64,000 nucleotides of DNA from an uncultured Bacteroidales bacterium (GTDB lineage Bacteria; Bacteroidota; Bacteroidia; Bacteroidales; B18-G4): assembly GCA_963753055.1 (NCBI GenBank), contig CAVWAP010000004.1:181550-245549 (forward strand), given 5' to 3'. Within the stretch, counting starts at the first letter, position 1. Each line of letters starts with the position of its first letter. Below the pieces are notes generated by a model. That model did no database searches. It was not told the DNA's origin and saw only the letters and a program-made list of their open reading frames with translations. This document shows positions 27,238-60,980 of the stretch, one piece after another. The position numbers were made by a program, and so were the translations under genes.

Positions 27238-28662
27238 GTGAGGCCGCTAAACTATAAAATATACATTGGGGGCGAATTCAGGGAGACGGAGAATTTCTTA
27301 AACGTCATAAATCCATTTGACCACAGTCTTGTGGCTCAAACTTACCTTGGATCCGTACATGACCTGGATGAAGCTATCAACAAGGCACAATTGAGATTGT
27401 CCGAGCTGAAGGCTCTTCCATCTCATAAGAAATCATCTATCCTGAATTATATTGCCGACCAGCTGTCAGAAAGAAAATTTCAATTTGTCGAGATTCTGTC
27501 GATGGAATCCGGCAAGCCATATAAATATTCAACGGGGGAAATAGATAGGGCCATACAAACCTTCAGGGTCGCTGCCGAAGAATCCAAACGACTACCCGGG
27601 GAATACCTCGATATCGATTGGACCCTTTCCGGAGAGGGAAAAGAAGGGATTGTAAAATATTTCCCCGTTGGTATTGTGGCCGGGATATCCCCCTTTAACT
27701 TCCCAATGAATCTGGCCGTACACAAAATTGCACCGGCTATCGCAGCAGGCTGTCCCATCATCCTCAAGCCTTCTTCATCTACACCGTTGTCTACCCTGGA
27801 ACTGGCCAAGGTGATAGACAATACAGAATTGCCCAAAGGCGCTGTCTCGATCATCCCGATGGACCGCAAAACAGGTAACTTATTAGTTACAGACCCCCGG
27901 ATTAAGCTGTTGACATTCACCGGCTCTCCTGAGGTCGGCTGGGAGATGAAGAAGGATGCAGGCAAGAAAAAAGTTGTGCTCGAGCTGGGTGGTAATGCAG
28001 GAGTAGTGGTTTCTGAATCAGCAGATATTGACCTGGCTGTCAGGAGGTGTATCATTGGTGCATTTGCGTACTCTGGCCAGGTCTGTATACATGCTCAGCG
28101 TATCCATGTGCATAGAAAAATCTTTGATGATTTTATCAGAAGATTCCTTGATGAGGCGAAAAAATTAAAATCAGGAAACCCAATTGATCCGGAAACTGAT
28201 ATTTCGGTTATGATTGATGAGGCTAACGCCATCAGGGTAGAAGAGTGGATCAGGGAAGCCATCGACTCAGGTGCTGAATTAATACATGGAGGAGAGAGAA
28301 AGGGATCCTATGTAGAACCAACAGTATTAACCCGGACAACTCCAGACATGAAAGTCTGTGCAATGGAAATATTTGGCCCGGTGGTTACCATTGAACAGTT
28401 CGATAATTTCCGGGATGCTGTCGATGCAGTTAACCTGGGAAGGTATGGGCTTCAGGCCGGTGTATTTACAAATCAACTGGATGAAATGAACCTGGCATTT
28501 TATCAATTGGATGTTGGAGGAGTGATCATTAACGATGTACCAACTTTCAGGGTGGATCATATGCCTTATGGCGGGGTCAAGGATTCCGGAATGGGAAGGG
28601 AAGGGGTGAAGTATGCCATTCATGATATGATGGAACCTAAAATACTGGTAAAGAATAAGTGA
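27238..28662 (+). CDS. NAD(P)-dependent aldehyde dehydrogenase family protein (GapN / succinate-semialdehyde-DH-like)
   Basis: 474 aa with a GTG start. ALDH motifs 'VLELGGNAG', catalytic-Cys region 'YSGQVCIHAQRIHV', and 'PYGGVKDSGMGREG'. Confidence 0.9.
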   Translation: MRPLNYKIYIGGEFRETENFLNVINPFDHSLVAQTYLGSVHDLDEAINKAQLRLSELKALPSHKKSSILNYIADQLSERKFQFVEILSMESGKPYKYSTGEIDRAIQTFRVAAEESKRLPGEYLDIDWTLSGEGKEGIVKYFPVGIVAGISPFNFPMNLAVHKIAPAIAAGCPIILKPSSSTPLSTLELAKVIDNTELPKGAVSIIPMDRKTGNLLVTDPRIKLLTFTGSPEVGWEMKKDAGKKKVVLELGGNAGVVVSESADIDLAVRRCIIGAFAYSGQVCIHAQRIHVHRKIFDDFIRRFLDEAKKLKSGNPIDPETDISVMIDEANAIRVEEWIREAIDSGAELIHGGERKGSYVEPTVLTRTTPDMKVCAMEIFGPVVTIEQFDNFRDAVDAVNLGRYGLQAGVFTNQLDEMNLAFYQLDVGGVIINDVPTFRVDHMPYGGVKDSGMGREGVKYAIHDMMEPKILVKNK

Positions 28663-31600
28663 ATTATAAACCTGTAATATTATTTGCCCTGGCGGCTCTC
28701 TGCTGCCTGTTCCTTGCTGGAATAGTACAGGCCCAGCAACCTGATGGTGACGGGAGAGCTATTGGTGATGATTGTACAGAACCCATACAGGTCAATCTAA
28801 CACAGGACCTGCCTTACCTTGAATACGGACAAACGACATGCGGCCGCGGTAATTCCTATGATACTACCTGCCTGGGATCATACGACGACGGGGAAGATAT
28901 AATTTACCAGCTTAATGTAAGTACTGAATTCGAGATCCAGATAACCATGACACCAAATGATGCATGGGCTGCCATGGGCTTATTCGATGATTGCCCCGAT
29001 GTTGGCAATTGCATGGAATCAGTGACATACGCCAATGTTGGGTATGTAATCCAGGCAATGACAATCAATACGATCCTTAGCCCGGGCACATATTATCTTA
29101 TGATGGACTCCTGGCCTGCTCCGGCATGCTTTGATTTTGACCTGGCAATAAACCAGGTTGTCCCGGTCGATGCATATCCATTCATTATCGATTTTGAAGA
29201 TGGTGAGATGCCGGTAGAATTTGTTATGCTGCCCGGAGGGGATGCAGGTATCAGGACTGATGCAGATGCAGCTCTGAACTCAGATTATGGTTTATTGTTC
29301 GAAGGGAATACACAGGCAAACTGGGGCCCTACTCCGGTTAATGTTAATGAAGCCTTCGATTCCACCAAAGTTTCACACTTTGGAACCATTAATATTGAAG
29401 TTGTCCCTACGGGTGAGCCAGGCACACTGAAAATGCAATTTGACCTTCAGCAGGGATATAGCTATACCCCCAACTACTGTTGGTTCAGGGTGATGGTTGA
29501 TAGCATAGTGATCGCTGATGAAAATGGATTTACATATTACCAACCCTTTACCCATAACGACCCATTCTCTTCCAGAACATGGGATCTTGGAGCATATCAA
29601 TCCGCTCCATTTACCATCACCCTTCAATCCTCATGTAAATACTACGAAAATTACTACGAGCAAGGCGATATTGTACATGTTGATGATTTTGAGATATGGT
29701 ATGAATTGCCACCCGGGAAAGTGGAGGGGTATGTGTTTAATGGAAACGGAATTCCCATACCTGATGCCAATGTAGGCCTTGAAGGCTCGGTAACTACATC
29801 CTCCGGAATTGATGGCTTTTATTTGTTAGAGCATGTCCCTTTCGGTATGCAGGAAATATATGCCTGGAAGCAGGGATATAACATGGTTTCTGCCTCGGTT
29901 AATGTGCCATCTGGTGGAGTGGCCAACCAGGATTTTATCCTGACCCAGCCAACAATGATCATATCACCTACCTTGCATTATTACACTTTGAATCCTTTTG
30001 AGCTCTATTCCACCCAGACAGGAATTCAAAACTCAGGTGATGGGCCTCTGGAATGGTCAGCAGTTATTAATTATCCTTCGGGAGATACCCTCGATTGGCT
30101 ATCTCTTGAATGGTACGAGGGCGTTGTACCACCTGATGGTGGCCTGGAAAACATCCCAACACATTTCAATGCTGCCAATACAACTTCAGGCGAAGTTTAT
30201 ACGGCTGATATTGTATTCACGAGCAACCCTGATGTTGGCACGCTTACAATACCCTGTGAAATGGTAGTACTTGGTGATCCATTGATCCCTCCTGCAGGAC
30301 TGCAGGTTAGTTTATTAAATGATGTGACAGGGGAGGTCAGGGTATCCTGGCAAGCCAGCAACAGGGATTTTCAGTACTTCATTGTAAAAAGGGATGGGGC
30401 CTTGCTTGCGTCAACTATTAATCAGTTTGTTATTGATTACTTGCCAGGCTATGGAGAGTACTGTTATACAGTGCAATCAAGTTATGATGAAGGATTTTCC
30501 ATACCGGCAGGGCCTGAATGTATACTCTGGCCTAATCCCCAGGTGTTTATTAATCCCAACCATGTCGAGGAATGGGTATGGATCGATCAACAGGCTGTTG
30601 TTAGCACAAACATTATCAACCTGGGCATTGGTACGCTGACTTATTCTTTTCCCGACTTTACCAAAGATGACAAGGTGCTTGAGTACTGCCCGGGAAGTGG
30701 CGGATGTGATGAATTTATACAAAATGTAAGTATTGGGAACATTAACAATACAACCGGCTGTAAAAATTACAGCAATTTCACCAACCTGTCTGCCACCGTT
30801 CAAAGAGGTGTTGCCTATCCTATTAGCATCAGTGTCGGCAATCCCGTGGCGGAGGATATCCTGGGTATTTGGGTCGACTGGGACCAGGATGAAGTGTGGG
30901 CGCAGGATGAAATGATACAGACAGCAGGAGACCCTTTTTCCGGATTCACCGCCGAAATTATACCACCTGATGGTAGTCCTGCCGGATACACAAGGATGAG
31001 AATCAGGTTGCAATGGGGTGGTGTACTGGATCCTTGTGGAACAACTGCTTATGGTGAAGTTGAGGACTACAGCCTTTACGTGCTGGGAGGCTTCATTACC
31101 GATGTTCAACCGTCTTCCGGAATTATTGCTGAGGGCAGTTCGCAGGTGATCATGATAACCTATGATGCATCTGCTTATCCTGAAGGTGATTTTTCCCGGC
31201 AGCTGTTATGCGAAACCAATGATCCATCAAGCCCTGTTTCAGTGATCTATAATACGATGCATGTGATAGTGCCTGCAGAATTAGTTGGAAATGTGAAGGA
31301 TGGTAACACCGGTGTTTATTTGCCTGGTGTGAGTGTGACAGCAGGCAACTGGCAGGCAGAAACAGATGAACATGGCCATTACAGCATGTATCTTGATGAA
31401 GGAATATATGATATCACCTTTCAGAAACTTGGCTATCAGACGGTTATAGTAGAAGATACTTTTGTTCAGCAGGGTGAGATTACTCCGCTGGATATACAAA
31501 TGTTTGAAGAACCTTATCCGGTCAGTTTTGTTCTGGCAACTGTTAATGAAGAAGATACAGAATGCCTTGTTGAATGGTCACTGCCTTATGTCCCGCTCGA

Positions 31601-34600
31601 ATTATATTATGATGATGGAGAAGCTGAAGAATTGGTAGTCTGGGCTGACCCACTCAATGAAAATGCGGTTAAGTTTACTCCACTGGGCTACCCCATGAAC
31701 CTTATTGGAGGACGCCTGAATGTTGGAGATGGCAGCTTCCCAGCCGGCAATTGGCTTAATTCTGAGTTTGCCCTGCTGATTTATGATGACGATGGTAATG
31801 ATGGCATGCCTGGAACACTAATGGATTCAATGACCGTTGAAGTACAAAACTTTGAATGGATCGAATTCAAGGGAGACACCATAACATTTTTGGATGGCGA
31901 TTTTTATATCTCAATGATGCAACTTAACCCTTCTCCAAATGCTCCTCCTCTTGGAGTGGACTTTACAAGCCCTGTTGCATACCGAAGCTATTCAAGGTTG
32001 CAGGGAGATGATTGGATCTTATCACCATACCAGGATTTCATGATCAGGGCATATGTGACAGGACCGGCAACTGATGATATGCCTGTTGAATTGGGTGTTA
32101 AGAAAGTTCCTGAAAAACTTCCTCCGGGTGCTGAAGGAAGATTGTACTTTACAAAAAATGGATTAGCACCAATTATATTTCCTGGCCTGGAAAGAGAGAC
32201 TGAATTTAATCTTCTGAATAACACTCATTCTTCAAACCGGGACCTTGTTTCTTACGACCTGATGAGGGTTTCTGATTTTAATCCTGACCTTGGACCACAA
32301 ACAGGAGTGTTCACGCTTATAGGCGATGATATAAATGCAATTTATTATAATGATACTGCTTTTGGAGCTTTGCCTATGGGCTGGTTTGCCTATGCTGTCC
32401 AGGCAAATTATACCAATGGAGATACTTCAGAATGGATATATTCCAACATCGTTGGACACCTTAAGGAGGTTAGAGTTGACTTCCAGGTCACCCTTACAAC
32501 AGGGGAGCTGCCGGATGAAGTTGAAATAACCATGGCCGGTGAAGACTATCCATATTCTGTGTATTCAGGAATCACGGATACCAACGGATTACTTTTTTTC
32601 AACGATGTTTGGAAAGGAACATATACCATTCATGCTTACAAAGTAGGATATGAACTATATGAGATCTCCAATGAAAATATTCAGTCAGATATGTCTTATT
32701 CCCTCACCCTTGGTGAAAAGCGATATCCTGCTCTTAATTTCTGGGTTGATCCCTTAACCTCAATGGCCTATTGGGATTATCCAATTGTTACAGCAATCAG
32801 GGAAGATTTTGACGGTTCGCAGTTCCTTCCATCAGGATGGCAAATAGTAAGTCAGGGTGTGGGTTGGTTTCTGACAACTGATGGCAGCAGCCCGAACTGG
32901 ACAGTGCCTGCATGGGATTCCCGGTACGCCTGTGCCAATGATGATAAAGCAGGATCTGCAAACAATGGATGTTGTGATTACCTTGTTACTCCGGCTGTAG
33001 ATCTGCGTGAATCAGAGGAGTTCAGCCTGATGTTTGACAGTTACTATGATGGTGCATACGGGGAAATCGCTAATGTGGAATTCAGTAATGATGGAGGAAA
33101 TACCTGGTATATCCTGATGGCCCTTACGCCAAACCCCGGGGGCTGGGAGCAAATTGAGATTGATCTTTCTTCATTATCAGGACCTAGTGGTGCCTATCCT
33201 GTCTGGTTTGCCTTTCATGCCGATGATGATGGTGAATGGGCTTCCGGCTGGGCAGTAGATAACATTGTAATCGCTAATGGCCTTGCTGGCCCCATCGATT
33301 TTTACATGTTCCTCGATGGAGCTTTTGTTAATAGTACGGAACAGACTTATTACCAGTATCCGTTTCTGACTTATGGAATCACATATGAGGCCAGCGTTGC
33401 TGCACACTATACTTCAGGATTATCTGAAAAGGTCTATTACCCCTTTACATCCACCTACCTCACACCTCCCAGGAACCTCAGAGGAGAAACCTTTGACGAT
33501 GCGGTGCAGCTCTGGTGGCAACCTCCTCTTGAACCGGATGGAGTTTTCGTTCTTCTGACAGAAAAGACCAGGACTGTCCATATCAATCCGCATGATGATT
33601 ATAGTCCGAAAGTCAGAACCATAAAGATCATGGATAACTCCATAGGGTCACGTGACCAATGGGATGTGCACTATTCCTATCCAACAATCTATACAGATGG
33701 GGAAACCGGAGCTGAAACAGATGGTGATTACCTGTATACAACACAATGGAACGCCGGTAATGGTACCTTCTTTAAGTACGATCTGGATGGAACTTACCTG
33801 GAAACCTTTGTTATTCCGGACTGCCGTGACCTGAGAGATCTTGCCTATGACCCCGATAATAGCATGATGTTTGGAAGCAACGCCTCCGACACGGTATGGA
33901 AAATGGATTTTATTGATCAGGTGCTTGTTGAAACATTCTTTGCTCCAACAGAAGTCAGAGCAATTGCATTTGACAGCGATGAGATTGGTTTCTGGGCTAA
34001 TAATTGGGATACAGATATCACATTATTTGATATGACAGGTTCATTGATCAGCAGTTTCCCGATCGGTACCTGGGGAAGCTATTACGGCTTTGCATACGAT
34101 AATTGGACTGATGGAGGTCCATACCTCTGGGGTTTTAGCCAGGACGGTAGCGGGGCAATCCTGGTTCAGATAGATCTGAATACGGGCACTGAAGTTACTG
34201 TGCTGGATGTGTTGCCCATCCTGGGTGGATCAGAAATAGCTGGTGGGTTATTTACAATGTGCAGCATGATATATAATAATGTTGTCACAATTGGTGGGGT
34301 GCTTCAGAACGAGATGCTGTTTGGTCTTGAATTGGGACCATGCCAGGGGCCACCTCTTCATTGGCATGTCCCTGAGAACCTGATTGGTTATAAGGTGTAC
34401 CGTGATCTTGATTGGGTAGGTTCAGTCCCATATTATGGAGAGGATACATCAACCTATTATGATACAGGCCTGGATCCATATACATATGAATATGATGTGT
34501 CAGCGCTATATACCTTGAGTACATATGGCTTCCCTGGTGAAGTGGGAGAATCGATGATGGAAGGACCATTCTATATCCAGGTCCAATATGGTTATCCTTT

Positions 34601-35594
34601 GCCATTTGAGGAAACATGGAGCTTAGGCAGCTTTGAATTAAACGAGTGGGATCATAGTGGTAATTGGATCATTAATAATCAATCAGGTAATCCACCTCCG
34701 TCGACTGAATTCTCATGGGAACCAATACTTACTAATTATAAATCATCATTGACAAGCCATCCGATCGATGGAGTAAACCTGCCTGCCCCATGGGTTGATG
34801 GTTGTATCTGGCTGGACTTTGACATCAAACTGATCGACCGGAATATGACCGGCCAGGAAAAACTGAGGGTGGAAATAGGAAATGACTTTGGCTGGTTTGA
34901 GGTGATGTCCTTTGATAATGCACAGGGGGGCTTTGATTGGCAACATAGCCATGTTGATATCAGTAGTATGGCGTTTGGAGAAATCTTCAGGGTCAGGTTT
35001 GTTGGTGAGGGAACAAACTCAATTGATATTCAATCATGGTTGATCGACAATATCCTGATCTATCGTGATTGTTCTCCTCCCAGGAACCTGAACCTGGAGA
35101 TCCAGAACTGCATCGATGTGTTATTGACCTGGGATGCTCCGTATGTTTGCGACAGCGCACGAAAGCTTGTGGAATATGATATATATGTCAATCTTGAATA
35201 TTATATGTCTACAACTGATACATTTTATATTTATACTGCAGGCCAGAATGGTACATATCGGTTCCAGCTATTTAGTGTATACGAAGACTGTGTTTCTGAT
35301 TCTTCAGTAAAAGGAACAATCGACGTGGTTTGCGTAGGAATAAATACCCCACAGGTAGATGATTGGGTGAATGTTTACCCCGTTCCAACATCGGAAACTC
35401 TTTATATTCAGGCAAAAGAAGAAATTAGGTATGTATCCCTTTTGAATAATATGGGTACAATAGTGTATTCTAATTATGGAAATGAGTCTAAAGAGCTGAA
35501 AGTCAATACAAAGACATTCATACCTGGATTTTATTTCCTAAAAATTGAAACTAAAACAAAAATATACAGTAAAAAGATTCTGGTCATTAGATAG
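28659..35594 (+). CDS. giant T9SS cargo protein, paralog 1 (2311 aa), multi-lectin/Ig surface protein of unknown function
   Basis: Uninterrupted ORF whose GTG start overlaps the ALDH stop (GTGA). Signal peptide 'ILFALAALCCLFLAGIVQAQ'. Modules in order: Cys-containing jelly-roll head; MAM/ConA-like head ('FIIDFEDGEMP...HVDDFEIWY'); three CarboxypepD_reg-like sandwiches ('VEGYVFNGNGIPIPDANVGLEG'); Ig/FN3-like units ('GEYCYTVQSSYDEGFSIPAGPEC'); a GEVED domain; choice-of-anchor-J/cleaved-adhesin-like domains ('EDFDGSQFLPSGWQ...WAVDNIVIAN'); one ~230-aa propeller-like module; CTD 35367-35591. Confidence 0.9.
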   Translation: MNYKPVILFALAALCCLFLAGIVQAQQPDGDGRAIGDDCTEPIQVNLTQDLPYLEYGQTTCGRGNSYDTTCLGSYDDGEDIIYQLNVSTEFEIQITMTPNDAWAAMGLFDDCPDVGNCMESVTYANVGYVIQAMTINTILSPGTYYLMMDSWPAPACFDFDLAINQVVPVDAYPFIIDFEDGEMPVEFVMLPGGDAGIRTDADAALNSDYGLLFEGNTQANWGPTPVNVNEAFDSTKVSHFGTINIEVVPTGEPGTLKMQFDLQQGYSYTPNYCWFRVMVDSIVIADENGFTYYQPFTHNDPFSSRTWDLGAYQSAPFTITLQSSCKYYENYYEQGDIVHVDDFEIWYELPPGKVEGYVFNGNGIPIPDANVGLEGSVTTSSGIDGFYLLEHVPFGMQEIYAWKQGYNMVSASVNVPSGGVANQDFILTQPTMIISPTLHYYTLNPFELYSTQTGIQNSGDGPLEWSAVINYPSGDTLDWLSLEWYEGVVPPDGGLENIPTHFNAANTTSGEVYTADIVFTSNPDVGTLTIPCEMVVLGDPLIPPAGLQVSLLNDVTGEVRVSWQASNRDFQYFIVKRDGALLASTINQFVIDYLPGYGEYCYTVQSSYDEGFSIPAGPECILWPNPQVFINPNHVEEWVWIDQQAVVSTNIINLGIGTLTYSFPDFTKDDKVLEYCPGSGGCDEFIQNVSIGNINNTTGCKNYSNFTNLSATVQRGVAYPISISVGNPVAEDILGIWVDWDQDEVWAQDEMIQTAGDPFSGFTAEIIPPDGSPAGYTRMRIRLQWGGVLDPCGTTAYGEVEDYSLYVLGGFITDVQPSSGIIAEGSSQVIMITYDASAYPEGDFSRQLLCETNDPSSPVSVIYNTMHVIVPAELVGNVKDGNTGVYLPGVSVTAGNWQAETDEHGHYSMYLDEGIYDITFQKLGYQTVIVEDTFVQQGEITPLDIQMFEEPYPVSFVLATVNEEDTECLVEWSLPYVPLELYYDDGEAEELVVWADPLNENAVKFTPLGYPMNLIGGRLNVGDGSFPAGNWLNSEFALLIYDDDGNDGMPGTLMDSMTVEVQNFEWIEFKGDTITFLDGDFYISMMQLNPSPNAPPLGVDFTSPVAYRSYSRLQGDDWILSPYQDFMIRAYVTGPATDDMPVELGVKKVPEKLPPGAEGRLYFTKNGLAPIIFPGLERETEFNLLNNTHSSNRDLVSYDLMRVSDFNPDLGPQTGVFTLIGDDINAIYYNDTAFGALPMGWFAYAVQANYTNGDTSEWIYSNIVGHLKEVRVDFQVTLTTGELPDEVEITMAGEDYPYSVYSGITDTNGLLFFNDVWKGTYTIHAYKVGYELYEISNENIQSDMSYSLTLGEKRYPALNFWVDPLTSMAYWDYPIVTAIREDFDGSQFLPSGWQIVSQGVGWFLTTDGSSPNWTVPAWDSRYACANDDKAGSANNGCCDYLVTPAVDLRESEEFSLMFDSYYDGAYGEIANVEFSNDGGNTWYILMALTPNPGGWEQIEIDLSSLSGPSGAYPVWFAFHADDDGEWASGWAVDNIVIANGLAGPIDFYMFLDGAFVNSTEQTYYQYPFLTYGITYEASVAAHYTSGLSEKVYYPFTSTYLTPPRNLRGETFDDAVQLWWQPPLEPDGVFVLLTEKTRTVHINPHDDYSPKVRTIKIMDNSIGSRDQWDVHYSYPTIYTDGETGAETDGDYLYTTQWNAGNGTFFKYDLDGTYLETFVIPDCRDLRDLAYDPDNSMMFGSNASDTVWKMDFIDQVLVETFFAPTEVRAIAFDSDEIGFWANNWDTDITLFDMTGSLISSFPIGTWGSYYGFAYDNWTDGGPYLWGFSQDGSGAILVQIDLNTGTEVTVLDVLPILGGSEIAGGLFTMCSMIYNNVVTIGGVLQNEMLFGLELGPCQGPPLHWHVPENLIGYKVYRDLDWVGSVPYYGEDTSTYYDTGLDPYTYEYDVSALYTLSTYGFPGEVGESMMEGPFYIQVQYGYPLPFEETWSLGSFELNEWDHSGNWIINNQSGNPPPSTEFSWEPILTNYKSSLTSHPIDGVNLPAPWVDGCIWLDFDIKLIDRNMTGQEKLRVEIGNDFGWFEVMSFDNAQGGFDWQHSHVDISSMAFGEIFRVRFVGEGTNSIDIQSWLIDNILIYRDCSPPRNLNLEIQNCIDVLLTWDAPYVCDSARKLVEYDIYVNLEYYMSTTDTFYIYTAGQNGTYRFQLFSVYEDCVSDSSVKGTIDVVCVGINTPQVDDWVNVYPVPTSETLYIQAKEEIRYVSLLNNMGTIVYSNYGNESKELKVNTKTFIPGFYFLKIETKTKIYSKKILVIR
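30681..31082 (+). other. GEVED domain in paralog 1 (slot 2)
   Basis: 'EYCPGSGGCDEFIQNVSIGNINNTTGC...TRMRIRLQWGGVLDPCGTTAYGEVEDYSLYV' ends with the literal GEVED signature. Confidence 0.75.
33651..34338 (+). other. ~230-aa uncharacterised propeller-like module (copy in paralog 1)
   Basis: 'RDQWDVHYSYPT..GETGAETDGDYLYTTQWNAGNGTFFKYDLDGTYL...LRDLAYDPDN..FGSNASDTVWKMDF...RAIAFDSDEIGFWANNWDTDITLFD...YGFAYDNWTDGGPYLWGFSQDGSG...IAGGLFT...GGVLQNEMLFGLEL'. Homologous copies are at 37635-38333, 41793-42486, 45871-46569, 50038-50730 and 58354-59046. Confidence 0.6.
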
Positions 35595-52300: not shown

Positions 52301-52608
52301 TATATGAGGATTGTGAATCTGCACCGGAAGGTGTCATGGTTGAAGTTACAGGCATCGAGGATATTCTTGCAGAAAATAACATTGCAGTCTATCCAAACCC
52401 TGCCCGTGACGTGCTGAATATCAAGTCAACTGATAATATCACACATATCACGATGATGAACAACGTCGGACAGGTTGTCCTCAACAAGAAAGTTGCTGAT
52501 GACAATGTTCTTGAGTTGAATGTAGAAAATTATGAACCAGGACTCTACATGATCAAGATCGAAACTGCTGACAACCTCGTTATCGAGAAAGTGTTGATAA
52601 CAAGATAA
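49330..52608 (+). pseudogene. paralog 3 fragment 6/6 (adhesin-like domains, propeller-like module 2, C-terminal jelly-roll, CTD)
   Basis: 1092-aa ORF, homologous from 'ADYLVTPALDLRESEDFF' onward. Contains the scrambled patch 'PVMIFVRCSGWSDVEV' where the paralogs read 'PVTDLLSDVQAGSDVEV' and 'PVEDLMVDVQAGSDVEV'. Confidence 0.8.
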
Positions 52609-52656
52609 TCCTGAATAGTGCAGTGCAACACTGTACCGTTCGAGGAACACGATAAG

Positions 52657-52692
52657 AAAAGGCCCTGCAAATTTTTGCAGGGCCTTTTCTTA
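52657..52692 (+). terminator. rho-independent terminator after paralog 3 (same sequence as after paralog 2)
   Basis: 'aaaaggccctgcaaa tt tttgcagggcctttt' at 52657-52688, followed by T-rich sequence. Confidence 0.8.
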
Positions 52693-52712: not shown

Positions 52713-52741
52713 AATGCAACGATTTGAGTGCTTTTTTTGTC
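52713..52741 (+). promoter_or_regulatory. conserved intergenic box, copy upstream of paralog 4
   Basis: See 35725-35752. Lies 221 nt upstream of the ATG at 52962. Confidence 0.3.
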
Positions 52742-52961
52742 TTACAAGGAACAGAAATGTTAGTTTACTTAAAGTAGCGAGCTTAAGTTTGCTAATGATT
52801 TCAAAGATATGTTTCTAAAATGACTTCAGTTGTTAAATAATTGATAAATTTCGATTTTTCAATTGGTGGTAATCATTTTATTATTATTTTCGCTGCTTCA
52901 TTAACTTTTTAGTAAACATTCTAAAACATAATCAATTATTAATAACCAAAACTTTTCCAAG

Positions 52962-53834
52962 ATGAAAATTATTACAAAAATGATTATGACATCTTTGGTG
53001 GTTTTATTGTCGGTTTCAATCATGTCTGCACAAGGCGTCAGGAAACCAGATTTTTCAGACCTTGAGCTGAAAATGATGGAACAGCACGCAGGCAAGGTGG
53101 TGCAACCCAGGCATGTTAACCCTCCAACAGATGTTTTGGCAGTTCCAGTCTCTAGCTTCCCTTACAGCACTGACTTTGAGAGTGGCATGCCCGCAGAATT
53201 TGATCCTCAGCCAGGTAGTGATGCTGATGTGAGAATCTCCGGCACTGCTGCTTCAAATGGTGCCAATGGATTGCTATTTGAAGGGAATACTTCCACAAAT
53301 TGGGGCTCAACGCCTTCAACTTATGCGTTAGCCTTTGATCCTTCAAAATCTACGCATTTCGGATCCTGCAATATTGATGTGATTCCGAGTGGTAGCGCAG
53401 GAGTATTAAGCATGATGTTTGATTTTGGCATGGGGTATTCCTATGCTGTGAATTACTCATGGTTCAGGGTGCTCGTTGATGGTGTCGTCATCTATGAAGA
53501 AGGCGGTGGCTATTATTTCCAGCCCGCAAGTCACTGGAATGGCTCTCAATGGCAGGAGCTTGAGTTTGACCTGAGCGCTTTTGAAGGTGCGCCATTTACC
53601 ATTACACTGCAATCATCCATGAAATATTATGAAAATTATTACCAGGAAGGTGATATTGCACTTATTGATGATTTTATGATCTGGTACAAGCAAGATCCTG
53701 GTGATGTTGAAGGATATGTATTTAATGGTGATGGTCTTACTATCGCTGGTGCAACAGTGGGCCTTGAAGGCTTTGCTATTACAACAACTAGATCCCAGCG
53801 GCTATTATTCCCTGCTGCAACTTCCTGGCGGTAA
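52962..53834 (+). pseudogene. paralog 4 fragment 1/2 (signal peptide, MAM-like head, start of CarboxypepD_reg)
   Basis: 290-aa ORF. Homology to paralogs 1 and 3 ('FPYSTDFESGMPAEFD...LIDDFMIWY', 'VEGYVFNGDGLTIAGATVGLEG') ends at 'AITTT'. Confidence 0.8.
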
Positions 53835-54081
53835 CCAGGAGATGTTTGCTACTAAGCAAGGATACAACGTGACTTACGACATGGTTAATATCCCTCCAGC
53901 TGGTCAGACAACACACGATTTCATACTGACTCAACCAACCATGATCCTTAATCCTCTATCACATAACTATACACTGAACCCACAGGAGTACTTTACTACT
54001 TCAACAGGTATACAGAATACCGGGGATGGTGAACTTACATGGTCTGCTGAGATTGTGTATCCCACCACAGATGAGCTACTG

Positions 54082-54492
54082 GCTTATTGTACTGCCAGTG
54101 GTGGTTGTGATGAGTATATTTCACGTGTACAGATTGGAGACATAGACAATAGCTCCGCATGTACAAATTATGGAGATTACACTGATCAATCAACAGATGT
54201 GCTTCTTGGCGAAAGCTACCCTATTACAATCACGAACGGTAATCCGATCTGGACAGCTGACGAGTGTGGTATCTGGGTTGACTGGAACCAGAATGAAGAC
54301 TTTTATGATGATGCGCCAATTTCTGTCAGTGGCAGCCCGGGCGTAGGACCTTATACAGCTACTATTACTGTTCCTCCAGACGCCCTTCCGGGGCCAACCA
54401 GGATGAGGGTGCGTATCGATTACGCCAATACCCCGGATCCTTGCGGTGCAACAACCTTTGGTGAAGCAGAAGACTACACCTTGTTCGTTGTT
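54082..54492 (+). other. GEVED domain in paralog 4 (slot 1)
   Basis: 'AYCTASGGCDEYISRVQIGDIDNSSACTNY...TRMRVRIDYANTPDPCGATTFGEAEDYTLFVV' has the same Cys pattern as 30681-31082 and a GEAED variant of the signature. Confidence 0.7.
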
Positions 54493-55119
54493 GGCGGTGC
54501 AGGAAACTGGCTCTCACTCGACTTCTACAGTGGTACAGTCCCTCCAAACGGCGGTATCTTGAATATTCCAACAAACTTCGATGCCTCCTTTGGTGAAGTT
54601 GGCAATACATATCATGCTGACATCGTTTTCACCAGTGATCCTGATGTCGGTGTAGTGACTATACCTTGCACAATGTCAATCATCGGCTCTCCACTTACAC
54701 CACCTGAAAACCTGGTGGTTAATCTGGAAAATGACCTTATCGGGCAGGTAAGCCTGACATGGGACTGGTTCGGTGATGCATTCCAGTATTTTGTGATCAA
54801 GAGAGATGGTGCAGTCGTTGGTTCAACAACAACCAATAATTTCACTGACTTCTTACCGGATTATGGAGAGTATTGCTATACTGTTCAGGCCCAGTATGAT
54901 GAAGGCCTCACAGTTCCTGCCGGACCTGAATGTGTTCTCTGGCCAAATCCGGAGATATACATCAATCCGACAGACCTGACCGGCTATGTATGGGTTGGCG
55001 AAACAGTGGATGTATATACCACAATTACCAATAACGGAATAGGTACACTGTCGTATTCATTCCCGGAATTTGTAACACTTGACCTGTTAAATGACCCAAC
55101 TGTTGTCAAGAACCAGACA

Positions 55120-55786
55120 GGTGCTCCATGGGAGTCTGTTGAACTTGAAAAGGGTGAAGTTGATCCGAACAATGGTAACGGTTACCCGGTTGATTTAGGT
55201 GCCGGTGGCCCTGATGATTTTGGTTATGTCTGGATCGATAGTGACGAAGCAGGCGGACCGGCATTCAGCTGGATCGATATCTCTGCAACAGGTACGGTAG
55301 TTACTGGTTTAAGTGATGATAACCATGTCGGACCATTCAATATTGGGTTTACTTTCCCATTCTATGGTGAAGATAAAACACAGTTCTATGTACAGTCAAA
55401 TGGATTGATTGGATTCCAGGATAGCTATATTACACTGACCAATTATGCCATTCCAACGGGTAATACTTATGCTGATTTTATTGCATGGTGCTGGGATGAT
55501 ATGGACCCTGGTAATGTAAATACAACAGTATGGTATGAAACGGTTGGAAATACTCTCGTTATCCAATTCGATACCTACTATGAGTATCCGGACGGAACCG
55601 AATATATTAATGCCCAGATGCAATTGTTCAGCAATGGTAAGATCCTGATCCTGTATGATTATATTGTACCGGGATTTGATTTAGGTGGTAATACCGTTGG
55701 CATACAATCATCTGATAATACACTTGGCTTACAGGTAGCTTATAATACTGCTTATCTCCATGATGACCTGGCATTATTATTTAGCC
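55120..55786 (+). other. NIDO-like beta-sandwich module unique to paralog 4 (slot 2)
   Basis: 'GGPDDFGYVWIDSDEAGGPAFSWIDIS..GTVVTGLSDDNHVGPFNIGFTFPFYGEDKTQFYVQSNGLIGF...' follows the FPFYG...V.SNG...F pattern of NIDO-type domains. This is a motif-level call only. Confidence 0.4.
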
Positions 55787-58353
55787 TACCAGCTGATTTC
55801 ATCGTTGATGTTCAACCACCAGCTGGAACTGTTGCTGAAGGTGAATCAGCTGATATCACAATCACTTATGATTCAGAAGGATACGATCCTGGCACCTATG
55901 AGCAGGAGCTGTATGTGGAATCCAATGATCCTAACAGTCCTGCAGATACAATAGACAATACAATGATCGTCTATACTCCCGGACAGTATGCCGGAACAGT
56001 ACTTGATGGAAATACTGCAATGGGTTTGATTGGTGTAACTGTTACAGCTGGCACGTACCAAACTGTAACTGATGCCAATGGAGAATATTCATTGTTTGTT
56101 GATGAAGGTACTTATGATGTATACTTCTCATTACTGGGATACCAGGATGTAATGGTTGCAGATACATTTGCTCTGGCAGGTATCGTCACACCAATTGACA
56201 TTATGATGTACGAAGAAGCATATCCGGTGCCATGGGTTACAGCTACAGTAAATGCTGATGATACAGAATGCCTTGTTGAATGGGCACTTCCTATCGGACC
56301 TTACGAAATCATCTATGATGACGGTAGCGCAGAAGAACTGGTTGTGTGGGCTTCTGGCCTGAACCAGAACGCTGTTAAGTTTACTCCATTAGGTTATCCT
56401 GCCACAATTATCGGTGGTCGCCTGTTTGTTGGTGACGGCAGTTTCCCAAATGCTAACTGGCTTGGATCAGACTTTGCCATGCTGGTAATTGACGATGATG
56501 GCGCAAATGGATTGCCAGGAACGGTACTTGACTCAGTACAGGTATTTGTTAATAACTTCGGCTGGTTAGAATTCTCATTGACAGGAACGGCCACCTTTAC
56601 TGAAGGTGATTTCTACCTGTCTATGATGCAGTTCTATCCTGCACCTAACACTGCACCACTTGGTGTTGACCTGGAAACTCCAACAGCTAACAGGAGTTAT
56701 TCCAAGTTTGCCGGTGCTACATGGTCACTTTCTGTATACCAGGATTTCATGATCCGTGCATACGTAGATGGACCAACCACCAGCGATAATGCAACAGTAA
56801 GCAGCAATACAATGTATCCACCTAAGCTTCCTGCTGATGCAGAAGGTAATATCTTCTTCTCACAGAATAACGTGAAGCCATCTGGAATACCAGGTGTAGA
56901 AGGCGCAGGTGAATTCAAAGCTGTTGAACATTTTGCTCCGGCAAATCGTGATGTAGTTTCATACAACCTTGCCAGGATATCTGATTTTGATCCTAACATG
57001 GGACCGGAATTCGGTACAATGACAACAATTACAAATACTACAGAACTTTCATATAACGATGTTGCCTTTGGCGGTCTGCCACAGGGATATTACGCATATG
57101 CTGTTCAGGCAGTCTATCAAAATGGTGACCTGTCTGACTGGGTATATTCTAATATCGTTGGACACCTTGAGTTCGTAACTGTCGACTTTGAAATTACCTT
57201 GTCTACTGGTGCACTGCCGGAAGGCGTTGAAGTTACAATGACAGGAGAAGAATGGCCAAACGCTATATATTATGGTGTTACTGACACTACCGGCCTTCTG
57301 ACATTCGAGGATGTATGGAAAGGAATTTATGTAATTACTGCCTACAAACCGGCATTTGATTTATATGAGATTCCAAATGAAAACATCCAGACCGACAGGA
57401 CCTTTGTCATTATCCTTGGAGAAAAGCGTTATCCTGCACGTAACCTGTGGGTTGATCCTTTGACTTCATGGGCATACTGGGAATGGCCAATAGTATCAGC
57501 TTTGTTTGAAGACTTTGAAGCTACTACATGGCCACCAACAGGATGGCAGTCACTCACTGCCGGCCAAGGCTGGTTCCTGACAACCGCTGGCAGCAGCGGA
57601 AGCTGGACGGTACCTACATGGGATTCACAATATGCAATATCTAACGACGATGGTGCCCCATCAGGCAACAACGGAAGTGCTGACTATCTCGTAACACCAG
57701 CGTTAGACCTTCGTGAATCAGAAGACTTCTTCCTGAATTTCGATAGCTTCTATGACGGAGCCTACGGACAGTTAGCTACTGTTGAGTATTCATACGATGC
57801 AGGAGCTACCTGGGAAGTACTTTATGCAGTACCTCCAACACCAGGCGCATGGGCAGACATTGAAATAGACCTTTCAGACTATTGCGGTGCAGGCTCAGCA
57901 TATCCAATCTGGTTTGCTTTCCATAGCGATGACATTGGAGCATGGGCCTCAGGATGGGCAATTGATAATGTATCAGTGGCCAATGGCGATGCCAACCCGA
58001 TCGATTTCTACGTCTTCTTAGATGGCGCCTTTGTATCTTCATCCGGTATCACCGAGTACCAGTATATGTGGCTGACTTACGGTGTTACTTATGAAGCGAG
58101 TGTATCAGCCCGTTATACTTCAGGCCTTTCAGAGAAGATCTACTATACCTTTGTATCTGAATACCTTGTACCTCCACGTAACCTGGACGGCGAGACCTTC
58201 GACGATGCAGTGCACCTATGGTGGGAGCCACCACTGGAGCCGGAAGCCATGTTCGAACTGGTCAGCGTTGTACCACGTACAGAGCGTCCAAACCAGTATT
58301 CAGACTACAGTCCAACTGTACGTACAGTTAAGGTAACTGGCAACAGCTCAACC

Positions 58354-59046
58354 CGCGATATCTGGGATGTACAATATAACTTCCCAACCTTCTTCAACGG
58401 AGGAGAGGCCGGAACCGAATCAGACGGTGAATATATCTATACCACACAGTGGAACGCCGGTAACGGTACAATGTATCAGTATGCTACTGATGGTACCTAT
58501 ATTGGCTCCTTTGTAGTAAGTGGTGCAATGGATATAAGAGACCTTGCGTATAATGAGAACACAGGCTATATGTACGGTTCCAACGCAGGCAACACTTGCT
58601 GGGAGATGGACTTCGCAGGAGGCACAACAATAAGTTCAATAGCAGCCCCAACAGCATGTAGGGCGATAGCTTATGACGACGGTGCCAACGGTTTCTGGGC
58701 AAACAACTGGGATACCCCGATTACGTTGTTTGACTATTCAGGAGCCACGTTGAATACCATCAACGTAGGTGCCTTTGGTAGCTTGTACGGATTGGCCTAT
58801 GATCCATGGACAGACGGTGGACCATACCTGTGGGGCTTTAGCCAGGCAGGTGCAGGTGCCGAGCTGGTACAGTATGACATGAATACAGGAGCAGAGATTT
58901 TCAACCTGAACGTACTTCCACTTATTGGAGGCACACAGATAGCAGGTGGACTTTATACTGCTTGTAACCTGGTCGTTCCGGGAACCGCCCTTATCGGTGG
59001 TAACCTGCAGAACGAGAAGGTCTTTGGACTGGAGTTAGCTGAGTGT
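58354..59046 (+). other. propeller-like module, paralog 4
   Basis: Colinear with 41793-42486 at offset 16561. About 0.4 kb (about 58391-58804) reads as identical to paralog 2. Confidence 0.6.
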
Positions 59047-60980
59047 TCTGGCTTGCCAGGCCCCGGCGGCTTCGTAGTACCGGAGAACCTGTTAGGTTAT
59101 AATGTATACCGTGACATGGAGAATATCGCTTACGTACCTTACGCTGGCGAAGACACAGCCAACTACTATGACCTTGGACTTGATCCACTGACCTACCAGT
59201 ATGATGTAACAGCCCTTTACGACCTTGGTCGTTATGGCTTCCCGGGCGACACCGGCGAATCCATGTATGAAGGACCGTTCATTATCCAGGTACTTTATGG
59301 TTATCCATTACCATTCCAGGAGTACTGGGTGAGTGGAGGCTTTGATGTTAACCAGTGGTCACCAGAAGGCAACTGGACTGTCAACGGCCAGACAGGTAAT
59401 CCTGAGCCGGCAACTGAGTTCACCTGGGATCCGGTATTGACTGACTATCGTTCAGCCCTGAGCAGCTTCCCATTGGATGGCATCGGCCTGGTAGGCGATC
59501 CATACATTGATGGTTGTATCTGGTTTGAATATGATGTTAAACTGGATGACCGCAACATGACAGGACTCGAAAGCCTGACCATTGAAGTAGGAAACCAGAA
59601 TGGATGGCATTCACTAGCTACTTACGACAATGCAGACGGTAGTTTTGACTGGACCCATGAGATGTTTGATATCACAGAATGGTCCTTCGGCCAGATATTC
59701 CGCTTGCGGTTTACAGCAGAAGGCGCCAGCTCAGCTGATATCCAGTCATGGTTCCTCGACAATATCGAAGTATACCTGCTCTGTATGCCAGTTACTGATC
59801 TTCTTTCAGATGTTCAAGCTGGATCTGATGTAGAAGTACATCTAAGCTGGACATCACCATACGCTTGTACAGCAGGCGGACCTGGTGGTGGCGAGTGGAT
59901 CTTCTGGGATGATGGTACCAACACAGGCGGCATAGGACTCACAGGCGGTGGTGTATTTAGTGTAGCATCACACTGGGATCCGGATATGCTGACAGCATAT
60001 GACGGCATGGCCATCACCAAGATCAGGTTCATACCTTATGAAAATGCAGCGAATACTGTGATCAATATCAAGGTATGGGAAGGCATCAATGCCGGTACCC
60101 TCATGATAGATCAGGCAGTCACTTCCTACATTGTAAGTGAATGGAACGAGATCGAGCTGGCTTATCCTGTTTATATTGATGTAACTAAGGAACTGTGGTT
60201 CGGTTATACTTGTGATTCACCCGATGGCGAGAACCCGGCAGGTTATGACGCTGGTCCTGCAATAGCAGGTTATGGCGACATGATCACGTTGGATGGAGCC
60301 ACCTGGGATCCGATCTCCAGCTTTGGTGCACAGTTTGACATTAACTGGAACCTGCAGGCATGGGTAACCGTACCTACAGAGACTTCAGCAGCACCAATTC
60401 CAATGGTAGATGTAACTGAATACAGCACACCGGAAGCAACGTTTAACCAGGATGCAGGACAAGCAATTGTATCAGCACCTGTTTACAGCAGCCGTGAGCT
60501 ACAAGGTTACAACATCTATAAGGACGGTGACTTCCTTGATTTCACAGCCGATACATTCTATGTAGATTACATTCCTTACAACAGCGCATTCCCGATGGAC
60601 ATCATGTACGATGTGACTGCTGTATTTGAGGATTGTGAATCTGCACCGGAAGGTGTCATGGTTGAAGTTACAGGCATCGAGGATATTCTTGCAGAAAATA
60701 ACATTGCAGTCTATCCAAACCCTGCCCGTGACGTGCTGAATATCAAGTCAACTGATAATATCACACATATCACGATGATGAATAATGTCGGACAGGTTGT
60801 CCTCAACAAGAAAGTTGCTGATGACAATGTTCTTGAGTTGAATGTAGAAAATTATGAACCAGGACTCTACATGATCAAGATTGAAACTGCTGACAATCTC
60901 GTTATCGAGAAAGTGTTGATAACAAGATAATACTGAAGAATAAGTATTATTTCTTCTAGAATCTAGTAACACGATGATTC

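What the first reader, a model, noticed from the sequence alone, without database searches (positions are those of the whole stretch)
28659..60930. Head-to-tail array of four giant paralogous T9SS cargo genes fills half the window and has no recognisable enzymatic core
Four same-strand genes lie at 28659-35594, 35970-44369, 44654-52608 and 52962-60930 (2311, 2799, ~2650 and ~2650 codons). They share one colinear scaffold:
- signal peptide
- lectin/jelly-roll head
- CarboxypepD_reg-like sandwiches
- Ig/FN3-like spacers
- choice-of-anchor-J/cleaved-adhesin-like domains
- a ~230-aa propeller-like module
- a type-A T9SS CTD

In more than 10,000 codons I recognised no peptidase, glycosidase, lipase or nuclease signature. 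No T9SS machinery, SusC/D pair, regulator, transposase or integrase lies between or beside the genes. A dense, recently homogenised array of multi-kb surface-protein genes with swapped modules looks like a dedicated variable adhesin or surface-coat locus rather than ordinary cargo. I know of no described system with this organisation.
Basis: partly seen in the sequence, partly recalled or inferred. Interest (0 to 1): 0.85.

Follow-up and report, generated by a model that had tools for sequence, protein, structure and literature searches.

The report
Array of giant secreted surface-protein genes
Four neighbouring genes of an uncultured Bacteroidales bacterium encode huge, enzyme-free, adhesin-like proteins exported by the type IX secretion system; the same locus recurs with 1 to 5 copies in dozens of related genomes, so it is real and uncharacterised but belongs to a familiar kind of surface protein.

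Summary
The array is real. Four same-strand paralogs lie at the stated coordinates, each with a signal peptide and a type-A T9SS C-terminal domain (CTD). All share a colinear scaffold of about 22 all-beta domains.

HMM, PDB-profile and AlphaFold/Foldseek tests found no catalytic domain. The roughly 230-aa module is a five-bladed beta-propeller.

- g3 is interrupted by at least 5 frameshifts and g4 by one. dN/dS stays at 0.05-0.33, so these are very recent inactivations or uncorrected assembly indels.
- Only the 3' part of g2-g4 is homogenised (92-99% nt identity). g1 is old, at about 54% aa identity to g2.
- g1-type and g2-type genes hold the same array positions in related MAGs.

New findings:
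- The locus is syntenic (aldH, array, ABC-F, polyprenyl synthase) in many uncultured Bacteroidales/Lentimicrobiaceae MAGs, with 1 to at least 5 copies.
- A motif TGCAAC-N18-GTCT precedes every transcription unit, including aldH-g1. In 1.3 Mb of related loci it occurs only upstream of these genes.
- In more distant relatives an ECF sigma / FecR / STN-OMP / beta-helix-cargo cassette precedes the array.

Best reading: a co-regulated, copy-number-variable family of non-enzymatic T9SS surface adhesin or lectin fibrils. The function is inferred, not shown. I rate it moderately interesting: an uncharacterised variant of a known kind.

The parts
27145..27172 (+). Promoter-like motif TGCAAC-N18-GTCT, 93 nt upstream of aldH. 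It follows the terminator hairpin of the preceding gene.
   Evidence: The same motif lies upstream of aldH in L005, L015, L030 and L008, and directly upstream of copy 1 in L003, which lacks aldH.
27238..28662 (+). Aldehyde dehydrogenase gene. Its stop codon overlaps the g1 GTG start (GTGA), so it is probably co-transcribed with g1.
   Evidence: Pfam Aldedh 473 bits. NCBIfam best match is lactaldehyde dehydrogenase-like, below cut-off. The overlap is visible in the sequence.
28659..35594 (+). g1: intact, 2311 aa. Order: signal peptide, galactose-binding-like and jelly-roll head, CPD-reg, Ig/FN3, GEVED, CPD-reg, coreA jelly roll, FN3, CPD-reg, choice-of-anchor J, FN3, five-bladed propeller, FN3, CAJ-like, FN3, type-A CTD. 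It has no LecC domain.
35726..35753 (+). Promoter-like motif TGCAACGATTCAATGTATATTGTTGTCT, 244 nt upstream of g2.
35970..44369 (+). g2: intact, 2799 aa. Two jelly-roll head domains (H1, H2), an extra propeller at 37557-38330, a 'DDFGDGWNGG' domain in slot V, a second propeller at 41685-42485, LecC jelly roll, and CTD at 44118-44366.
44416..44453 (+). Terminator-like perfect hairpin (18-nt arms) after g2.
44472..44500 (+). Degenerate copy of the motif (TGCAAG, spacer +1, GTCA), 182 nt upstream of g3.
44654..52608 (+). g3: same scaffold as g2 but with a g4-like head. It is interrupted by a complex indel at 45584-45620, which lies at the junction between the g4-like head and the g2-like body. There is a -1 at 45984 and +1 insertions at 46015, 47673, 49040 and 49361. 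A compensated -2/-1 pair lies at 51483/51502.
52653..52692 (+). Terminator-like perfect hairpin after g3.
52715..52742 (+). Promoter-like motif TGCAACGATTTGAGTGCTTTTTTTGTCT, 247 nt upstream of g4.
52962..60930 (+). g4: about 2650 codons, with one frameshift near 53792 inside the first CPD-reg domain. GEVED lies at about 54270-54485. The 3' 5 kb is 86-90% identical to g2/g3.
60981..61007 (+). Terminator-like hairpin after g4.
61059..63999 (.). Conserved downstream flank: ABC-F ATPase (+) and polyprenyl synthase (-). These mark the syntenic position of the array in related genomes.

Best explanation
The locus encodes a family of giant (2300-2800 aa), acidic, all-beta, non-enzymatic cell-surface proteins.

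Proposed route (inferred from other Bacteroidota): each protein is exported by Sec through a signal peptide with an A|Q site. It then crosses the outer membrane through the type IX secretion system by means of its type-A C-terminal domain. The domain is cleaved off and the protein is anchored to the cell surface.

Proposed structure and role (inferred): each protein is a long string of about 22 beta-sandwich, jelly-roll and five-bladed-propeller modules. The conserved C-proximal part forms a stalk. The module content of the N-terminal head and of a few internal slots differs between copies. The most likely role is binding of glycans, particles or other cells, that is, an adhesin or lectin fibril repertoire.

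Origin (shown by comparison): the array arose by tandem duplication at a fixed chromosomal site between aldH and an ABC-F gene. g1-type and g2-type genes are old, positionally conserved paralogs. g2, g3 and g4 have exchanged sequence by recombination or gene conversion, which homogenised their 3' parts.

Regulation (inferred): all units share an upstream TGCAAC-N18-GTCT element whose layout resembles an ECF-sigma promoter, so the copies are probably co-regulated. g1 appears to be transcribed with aldH.

g3, and perhaps g4, is either freshly inactivated or carries uncorrected assembly indels.
For: Shown:
- Paralogy and colinear domain map.
- CTD above the curated cut-offs in all four genes.
- Signal peptides with Q at +1.
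- No catalytic family in Pfam or NCBIfam scans of whole proteins and 300-aa chunks. M36 and TapA matches cover only the CTD.
- PDB sequence and profile searches hit only transthyretin-like, reelin, CTD and propeller chains.
- AF2 model of p2 1906-2715: a 20-strand, five-bladed propeller at pLDDT >90 plus sandwiches. Foldseek top hits are WD40/NHL propellers.
- AF2 model of the head, p2 27-530: pLDDT 80.9, all-beta. Foldseek top hits are Gram-positive adhesins and pilins (UafA, SdrD, SpaC) plus the carboxypeptidase D transthyretin-like domain.
- Synteny and copy number from 1 to at least 5 in related MAGs.
- 59 unique complete homologs share the scaffold.
- Positional orthology of g1 and g2 types.
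- Mosaic identity, with dS ranging from 0.03 to >2 between domains of the same gene pair.
- dN/dS 0.05-0.33.
- Motif: 4 of 5 loose matches in the window sit upstream of the four units, against 1.1 matches expected. A PWM scan of 1.31 Mb on both strands gave 31 hits, all on the gene strand and just upstream of these genes or of aldH.

Inferred:
- Surface anchoring, by analogy with Porphyromonas and Tannerella T9SS cargo.
- Binding function, from folds only.
- ECF-type nature of the motif, from its AAC...GTC layout only.
Against: - No binding, localisation or expression data exist.
- Foldseek matches for the head have low TM-scores (0.13-0.25). They show only a generic chain of beta-sandwiches.
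- Slot V, coreA and the middle part of the protein were not modelled. Their non-catalytic status rests on HMM and hhalign results only.
- Loci that carry the high-scoring motif mostly lack an adjacent ECF cassette. Cassette-bearing loci mostly lack the motif and show other upstream elements, including a canonical TAnnTTTG box. The link between motif and ECF sigma is therefore unproven.
- Two of four copies are interrupted here, against 1 of 93 copies elsewhere. Part of the array may be non-functional, or the sequence may be imperfect.
Confidence: 0.6

Rival explanations
1. Surface-coat or S-layer-like proteins. The giant proteins are abundant structural components that cover the cell, as TfsA and TfsB (two tandem T9SS cargo genes) do in Tannerella forsythia. 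They would not be ligand-specific adhesins.
For: - Tandem T9SS cargo made only of beta-sandwich modules.
- Strong terminators and separate promoter-like elements for each gene.
- A local match of the CPD-reg domain to an anammox S-layer glycoprotein model.
- One Foldseek hit to Sulfolobus SlaA (rank 32).
Against: - The S-layer model match is 37 bits against a 1400-bit cut-off, and covers one domain only.
- Copy number varies from 1 to at least 5, and head modules differ between copies. This fits a binding repertoire better than a lattice.
- Lectin-type jelly rolls and propellers dominate.
Confidence: 0.15
2. Variation system with silent donor copies. One or two copies are expressed. Interrupted copies such as g3 act as sequence reservoirs that recombine into the expressed genes to change surface specificity or antigenicity.
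For: - Mosaic blocks with 99% identity lie next to blocks of 50-70% identity.
- g3 is a chimera of a g4-like head and a g2-like body, with an indel at the junction.
- g3 has a degenerate upstream motif and many frameshifts, yet dN/dS stays at about 0.2.
Against: - No recombinase, invertible promoter or long inverted repeats lie at the locus.
- Interrupted copies are rare in other genomes: 1 of 93.
- Positional orthology of the g1 and g2 types argues for stable, differentiated genes.
- No sign of diversifying selection.
Confidence: 0.08
3. Hidden enzymes. One of the Pfam-dark modules (head, slot V, coreA/LecC or the propeller) is a divergent glycosidase, lyase, peptidase or cyclase, and the rest of the protein is a carrier.
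For: - Five-bladed propellers include glycoside hydrolases and plant-type glutaminyl cyclase. The profile gave marginal hits to glutamine cyclotransferase 2faw, E 0.036 and 0.9.
- Weak Foldseek similarity of the head to peptidylglycine monooxygenase, probability 0.7-0.8, TM 0.22.
Against: - No catalytic family reached significance in any search.
- The best propeller matches are non-catalytic WD40/NHL proteins.
- The same modules occur as repeated accessory units in unrelated giant proteins.
Confidence: 0.05
4. Assembly artefact. The array, or part of it, is a mis-assembled duplication of one or two genes.
For: - Frameshifts are concentrated in g3, g4 and one neighbouring repeat-containing cargo gene. 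Housekeeping genes are intact. This pattern can arise from poor polishing of repeats.
Against: - Copies differ by 1-50% in sequence and in module content.
- Each copy has its own intergenic region and terminator.
- Independent assemblies, including complete chromosomes, hold 3 to at least 5 tandem copies at the same site.
Confidence: 0.02

Closest known systems
Tannerella forsythia S-layer proteins TfsA/TfsB (from my own knowledge, not tested here)
   Same: - Large, non-enzymatic T9SS type-A cargo built of Ig-like and beta-sandwich domains.
- Encoded by adjacent same-strand genes and displayed on the cell surface.
   Different: - About half the size, and a fixed pair rather than a variable array of 1-5.
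- No propeller, choice-of-anchor J or GEVED modules.
- No sequence relationship was tested or seen here.
Porphyromonas gingivalis HagA / gingipain haemagglutinin-adhesin (Cleaved_Adhesin, PF07675) regions
   Same: - T9SS cargo with repeated MAM-like or jelly-roll adhesin modules.
- Some distant giant homologs of the window proteins do carry PF07675 (P0028, P0034, P0036).
   Different: - The window proteins gave no PF07675 hit.
- The family profile did not hit the solved gingipain adhesin domains.
- There is no protease partner.
Flavobacterium johnsoniae SprB/RemA gliding adhesins (from my own knowledge)
   Same: - Giant repetitive T9SS-secreted surface adhesins with several paralogs per genome.
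- RemA carries a lectin domain.
   Different: - SprB uses a type-B CTD and needs adjacent sprF/porP-like genes.
- Here the CTD is type A (TIGR04183) and no PorP/SprF-like gene is adjacent.
- The domain content is different.
Gram-positive MSCRAMM and pilus adhesins (UafA, SdrD, SpaC)
   Same: They are the best Foldseek matches of the head model, as chains of beta-sandwich modules ending in a binding region.
   Different: - TM-scores are only 0.13-0.25 and sequence identity about 10%.
- Secretion and anchoring differ: sortase/LPXTG in those proteins, T9SS here.
Bacteroidota ECF sigma / FecR anti-sigma / STN-domain cell-surface signalling (ECF240-type; PMC7826278)
   Same: - In at least 9 related loci a TIGR02985 sigma factor, a FecR protein and an STN-domain outer-membrane protein precede the array on the same strand.
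- The TGCAAC-N18-GTCT element has an ECF-like layout.
   Different: - The STN domain is fused to a small OMP beta-barrel, not to a SusC-like TonB-dependent transporter.
- No SusC/D pair is present.
- The cassette is absent from this window.
- Motif and cassette do not co-occur in the loci fetched.

Membership tests
T9SS type-A cargo | C-terminal type-A sorting domain (TIGR04183 / PF18962) above the curated cut-off | tested here: met
   NCBIfam 35.6-37.8 bits against a cut-off of 23 for g1, g2, g3 (last ORF) and g4. Pfam 38.5-51.5 bits against 27 (g1, g2).
T9SS type-A cargo | N-terminal Sec signal peptide, commonly with Gln at +1 | tested here: met
   Read directly from the translations: VQA|QQ, LFA|QM, VFA|QS, MSA|QG. 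No signal-peptide predictor was available.
T9SS type-A cargo | T9SS machinery in the genome; secretion and CTD cleavage shown | not testable with these tools
   Only 64 kb of the genome is available, and no por/gld/spr genes lie in it. Several other CTD-bearing genes in the window imply a T9SS.
Choice-of-anchor J domain proteins (NF038128) | Domain score above the curated cut-off | tested here: inconclusive
   g1 scores 45 bits against a cut-off of 30. g2-g4 are not listed at E<=0.01, although their CAJ1/CAJ2 modules are homologous to that of g1.
Cleaved_Adhesin (PF07675) / HagA-type adhesins | PF07675 domain | tested here: not met
   No hit at E<=0.05 in whole proteins or 300-aa chunks. The family profile gave no hit to gingipain adhesin structures.
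SprB/RemA-type gliding adhesins | Type-B CTD and an adjacent PorP/SprF-like outer-membrane partner | tested here: not met
   The CTD is type A. Neighbours are aldH and ABC-F, and no PorP/SprF family was detected.
Enzymatic T9SS cargo (peptidase, glycosidase, lipase, nuclease) | A recognisable catalytic domain | tested here: not met
   - Pfam, NCBIfam, PDB sequence and profile searches and two AF2/Foldseek runs found none.
- T9SSA_dep_M36 matches cover only model positions 781-868, which is the CTD.
- About 40% of the protein (slot V, coreA, the middle) was not modelled in 3D.
S-layer glycoproteins (Kustd1514 family, NF052345) | Full-length match above cut-off | tested here: not met
   25-37 bits against a cut-off of 1400. 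The match covers one ~85-aa CPD-reg-like domain.
ECF-sigma (FecI/FecR-type) regulon | Cognate ECF sigma and anti-sigma genes at the locus | tested here: not met
   Absent from the window. Complete in 9 related loci (L014, L035, L040, L044, L052, L053, L058, L059, L062) and partial at the locus edge in 4 more.
ECF-sigma (FecI/FecR-type) regulon | ECF-type promoter used for transcription of the genes | not testable with these tools
   A conserved TGCAAC-N18-GTCT element sits upstream of all units. No transcript data exist, and the sigma assignment is inferred from the pattern only.

The most novel reading that the evidence does not exclude
The array is the effector part of a clade-wide, dedicated surface-fibril system of uncultured Bacteroidales/Lentimicrobiaceae. 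In this reading it is a regulon with its own promoter type, ancestrally coupled to an ECF sigma/FecR/STN-OMP envelope sensor. Positionally fixed, functionally differentiated giant lectin-like paralogs expand, contract and exchange modules by recombination. Interrupted copies such as g3 would serve as donors. The result would be a bacterial counterpart of eukaryotic adhesin gene families, setting how these organisms attach in flocs, granules and sediments.
Probability: 0.2. Interest if true: 0.6.

Novelty: new variant of a known kind. Interest (0 to 1): 0.42.

Why it matters
- Lentimicrobiaceae-like Bacteroidales are abundant in anaerobic digesters, sludge and sediments, but almost none are cultured. 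How they attach to particles or partners is unknown.
- This locus takes up half of the 64-kb window. It is conserved in position across many species, and it now has a testable regulatory handle: the TGCAAC-N18-GTCT element, and the ECF/FecR/STN cassette in relatives.
- It is a concrete candidate for the main surface-adhesion apparatus of the clade. It is also a clean natural example of module shuffling and gene conversion in giant T9SS cargo.
- It does not overturn any concept, because giant non-enzymatic T9SS adhesins and tandem paralogs are familiar.

Tried and rejected
- Exact-sequence look-ups of window proteins in the assembly collection found nothing. One of the two used wrong coordinates. 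The source genome could not be identified; the closest relative is MAG CSMAG_2824 at about 76%.
- phmmer of g2 against PDB sequences gave no hit.
- A first self-BLAST for internal repeats returned nothing because contained HSPs are culled. It was redone with chunks.
- Rfam gave no RNA family anywhere in the window.
- Inverted-repeat search of the intergenic regions found only terminator hairpins and weak AT-rich pairs, so there is no invertible-promoter signature.
- Frameshift contexts show no homopolymers or shared slippery motif, so classical phase variation and programmed frameshifting were rejected.
- I tested whether the frameshifts sit at mosaic breakpoints. Only the 45584-45620 indel clearly does.
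- I tested for diversifying selection. None is seen at domain level.
- I tested the link between the motif and the ECF cassette. They do not co-occur in the loci fetched.
- A metagenome-wide scan for the motif was considered and dropped. With 15 specified bases, chance matches would swamp the result.
- Seven literature searches found no description of the family.
Full report
**Observation**

ORF listing and a stop-codon map show two intact giant ORFs on the + strand: g1 at 28659-35594 (2311 aa) and g2 at 35970-44369 (2799 aa).

Two further gene-sized regions are not single ORFs.
- g3 (44654-52608) is read in at least five frame segments.
- g4 (52962-60930) is read in two, 290 aa plus 2409 aa.

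tblastn and blastn show that all four are paralogs.
- g2, g3 and g4 share 86-90% nt identity over their 3' 5-7 kb.
- g1 is about 54% aa identical to g2 over about 1700 residues.

Aligning g3 to g2 places the disruptions as follows.
- A complex indel at 45584-45620.
- A -1 at 45984.
- +1 insertions at 46015, 47673, 49040 and 49361.
- A compensated -2/-1 pair near 51490.

The g4 shift is near 53792. None of these sites lies in a homopolymer or shares a motif.

**Anatomy**

All four N-termini are signal peptides with an A|Q cleavage context.

Pfam and NCBIfam give these matches.
- CarboxypepD_reg, two to three per protein.
- GEVED in g1 and g4.
- A weak galactose-binding-like match in the g1 head.
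- Choice-of-anchor J above cut-off in g1.
- Reelin subrepeat B, just above the Pfam cut-off in g1 and weak in g2.
- HYDIN-type Ig.
- A type-A T9SS sorting domain above the curated cut-offs in every gene.
- Matches to the M36 peptidase and TapA models that cover only the sorting domain.

I cut a 21-sequence family alignment (A1) into 22 modules.
- hhalign showed coreA~LecC, CAJ1~CAJ2 and M~M2, and that the three CPD-reg and several FN3 modules are related.
- HMMs of these modules map a colinear scaffold onto all four genes. They place each g3/g4 frameshift inside a domain.

The module swaps are real.
- Slot V holds GEVED in g1 and a 'DDFGDGWNGG' domain in g2/g3.
- g2 and g3 have an extra N-terminal propeller.
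- g1 lacks LecC.
- g4 carries GEVED earlier in the protein.
- The heads are of three types.

**Is there an enzyme?**

- phmmer of g2 against PDB sequences found nothing.
- Profiles of the family and of two sub-alignments hit only transthyretin-like domains of carboxypeptidases, reelin, T9SS CTDs, FN3 and WD40/YncE-type propellers. Glutamine cyclotransferase appeared only at E 0.036-0.9.
- AlphaFold2 of p2 1906-2715 gave mean pLDDT 74.8. The ~230-aa module scored above 90 and forms 20 strands, that is, five blades.
- Foldseek against the PDB returned WD40 and NHL propellers.
- AlphaFold2 of the head, p2 27-530, gave pLDDT 80.9 and is all-beta.
- Foldseek for the head returned Gram-positive adhesins and pilins (UafA, SdrD, SpaC) at low TM-scores, plus the carboxypeptidase D transthyretin-like domain at rmsd 1.4-2.7 Å.

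No catalytic fold appeared. The segment p2 790-1900 was not modelled, so for that part the negative result rests on HMMs only.

**Relatives and synteny**

- A word-indexed search found about 25 full-length homologs (37-54% identity). All come from uncultured Bacteroidales, and their only names are 'carboxypeptidase regulatory-like domain-containing' or 'hypothetical'.
- An exhaustive HMMER search with the conserved core found 280 clusters at E<=1e-30 among 1.84 billion representatives.
- Contig look-ups and a scan of GTDB species genomes found 393 encoding stretches. All 62 best loci are MAGs: nearly all labelled Bacteroidales, Lentimicrobiaceae, Bacteroidia or Bacteroidota, and a few carry labels of other phyla, probably through mis-binning.
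- Probe counting shows a conserved position: aldH, then 1 to at least 5 tandem copies, then ABC-F, then polyprenyl synthase. Examples are one copy in L035/L040/L052, three in L062, at least four in OY781105, and five in JAGOPY010000004.
- Among 59 unique complete homologs, the scaffold C-C-coreA-C-CAJ1-M2-CAJ2-(LecC)-CTD predominates.
- In the closest relative, L003, copy 1 is the ortholog of g1 (74-76% per domain) and copy 2 is the ortholog of g2. Position-2 genes in L005, L015 and L030 also carry the g2-type head.

The g1/g2 duplication is therefore old and the order of copies is maintained. This excludes an assembly duplication. It also tempers the idea of a rapidly varying array.

**Evolution inside the window**

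- Sliding-window identity among g2-g4 is mosaic. The heads are about 50-70% identical. g2 and g3 are 85-96% identical across the N-terminal propeller and Ig/FN3 block, where g4 differs. The middle is 60-88% identical, and the last ~3 kb is 92-99% identical.
- Per-domain dS for the same gene pair ranges from 0.03 to more than 2. dN/dS is 0.05-0.33 for every pair, including those with g3.
- This is the signature of recombination or gene conversion under purifying selection, not of diversifying selection.
- g3 switches from g4-like to g2-like exactly at its complex indel.
- g3 shows no relaxation of constraint, so its frameshifts are very recent or are errors.
- A neighbouring T9SS cargo gene (24667-27083) also carries two frameshifts relative to an intact 812-aa ortholog. 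Housekeeping genes in the window are intact.
- Only 1 of 93 copies in other MAG loci is interrupted.
- Concentration of indels in repeat-rich genes fits either incomplete polishing of a long-read assembly or genuine decay. Only the reads can decide.

**Regulation**

- Strong terminator hairpins follow g2, g3 and g4.
- Aligning the intergenic regions exposed a shared element.
- The pattern TGCAAS-N18/19-GTCW has five matches in the window against 1.1 expected. Four lie upstream of the four transcription units: 27145 (93 nt before aldH, whose stop overlaps the g1 start), 35726, 44472 (a degenerate copy, before g3) and 52715.
- A position weight matrix scanned over 1.31 Mb of related loci, both strands, gave 31 hits at 18 bits or more. 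All are on the gene strand and all lie just upstream of a giant gene, or of aldH in the window's clade. Fourteen of them were not in the training set.
- The AAC...GTC layout resembles ECF-sigma promoters. That assignment is an inference.
- Separately, in 9 more distant loci the array is preceded by four genes on the same strand. Four further loci show part of the same cassette at their edge. The four genes are:
  - a TIGR02985 ECF sigma factor (158 bits against a cut-off of 126);
  - a FecR anti-sigma factor;
  - an STN-domain/OMP beta-barrel protein;
  - a beta-helix T9SS cargo gene.
- This cassette is absent from the window.
- High-scoring motif sites and the cassette do not co-occur in the loci fetched. 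Cassette-bearing loci show other upstream elements, including a canonical TAnnTTTG box. I therefore do not claim that this sigma factor reads this motif.

**Interpretation**

The best-supported reading is a co-regulated, copy-number-variable family of non-enzymatic giant T9SS surface proteins. They are most likely adhesin or lectin fibrils, with variable heads on a conserved stalk.

- Secretion and anchoring are inferred from the CTD and from knowledge of other Bacteroidota.
- Binding is inferred from folds.

The rival readings are:
- an S-layer-like coat;
- a recombination-based variation system with silent copies;
- a hidden enzyme;
- an assembly artefact.

Each is weighed in its own section of this report.

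**Comparison with known systems**

The proteins are bona fide T9SS type-A cargo by sequence criteria.
- They fail the tests for Cleaved_Adhesin/HagA, for SprB-type adhesins (type-B CTD, PorP/SprF partner), for S-layer models and for enzymatic cargo.
- Functionally they most resemble TfsA/TfsB or RemA-like surface proteins.
- Full-text searches found no paper describing the family or its arrays.
- The ECF review PMC7826278 gives the context for FecR-linked Bacteroidota sigma factors.

**Verdict**

This is a real, conserved and uncharacterised locus, and a new variant of a familiar kind of system. It needs correction on gene integrity, on the extent and age of homogenisation, and on regulators in related genomes. 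Interest is moderate.

Noticed in passing
window 24667-27083 (+): A T9SS cargo gene with a Por_Secre_tail domain and an internal duplicated domain. It is read in three frames, with shifts near 24995 and 26043. Its ortholog in L003 (6331-8769) is an intact 812-aa ORF. Like g3 and g4, it is a repeat-containing cargo gene that carries indels.
   Followed up: partly
L035:1898-8097 and equivalents in L014, L040, L044, L052, L053, L058, L059, L062: A cassette of ECF sigma (TIGR02985), FecR anti-sigma, an STN domain fused to a small OMP beta-barrel (not a TonB-dependent transporter), and a beta-helix/NosD-like T9SS cargo gene. It lies directly upstream of the giant gene(s) on the same strand.
   Followed up: partly
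window 35945-35969, 44630-44653, 52935-52961; L035, L040, L052 just upstream of the giant-gene ATG: A leader sequence of the type TTATTAACCAAAAC lies 12-20 nt upstream of the start codon. It is conserved between paralogs and in homologs only ~35% identical in protein. Its function is unknown.
   Followed up: partly
L035, L040, L052, L059, L062 (about 230 nt upstream of the giant genes); L014, L042: Other clade-specific upstream elements: 'AGAAAGGAGGA', and 'CCGAGTAGGGGTnAAnGCCnTTTTnnTTGTCnT'. The second ends in the same TTGTC as the window motif.
   Followed up: no
window 27238-28662: The aldehyde dehydrogenase gene appears to be transcribed with g1. Its stop overlaps the g1 GTG, and the shared motif lies upstream of aldH, not between the two genes. 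The arrangement is conserved in L005, L015, L030 and L008. L003 lacks aldH. The link between an aldehyde dehydrogenase and a surface protein is unexplained.
   Followed up: partly
window 3291-6596, 13576-16116, 16102-17793(-): Further secreted-protein genes. Two are BNR/sortilin-Vps10-like proteins, the second with a T9SS CTD. The third is a pectate-lyase-like beta-helix protein with a T9SS CTD. The window is unusually rich in T9SS cargo.
   Followed up: no
window 7943-13586: An RND efflux operon (HlyD-type adaptor, AcrB-type pump, outer-membrane factor). It is ordinary.
   Followed up: no
L062:16889-19717: A truncated 942-aa family member (Reelin-like domain plus CTD) sits between two full-length copies. 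The last copy in JAGOPY010000004 is also shortened, at 1781 aa. Arrays in other genomes therefore also hold reduced copies.
   Followed up: no
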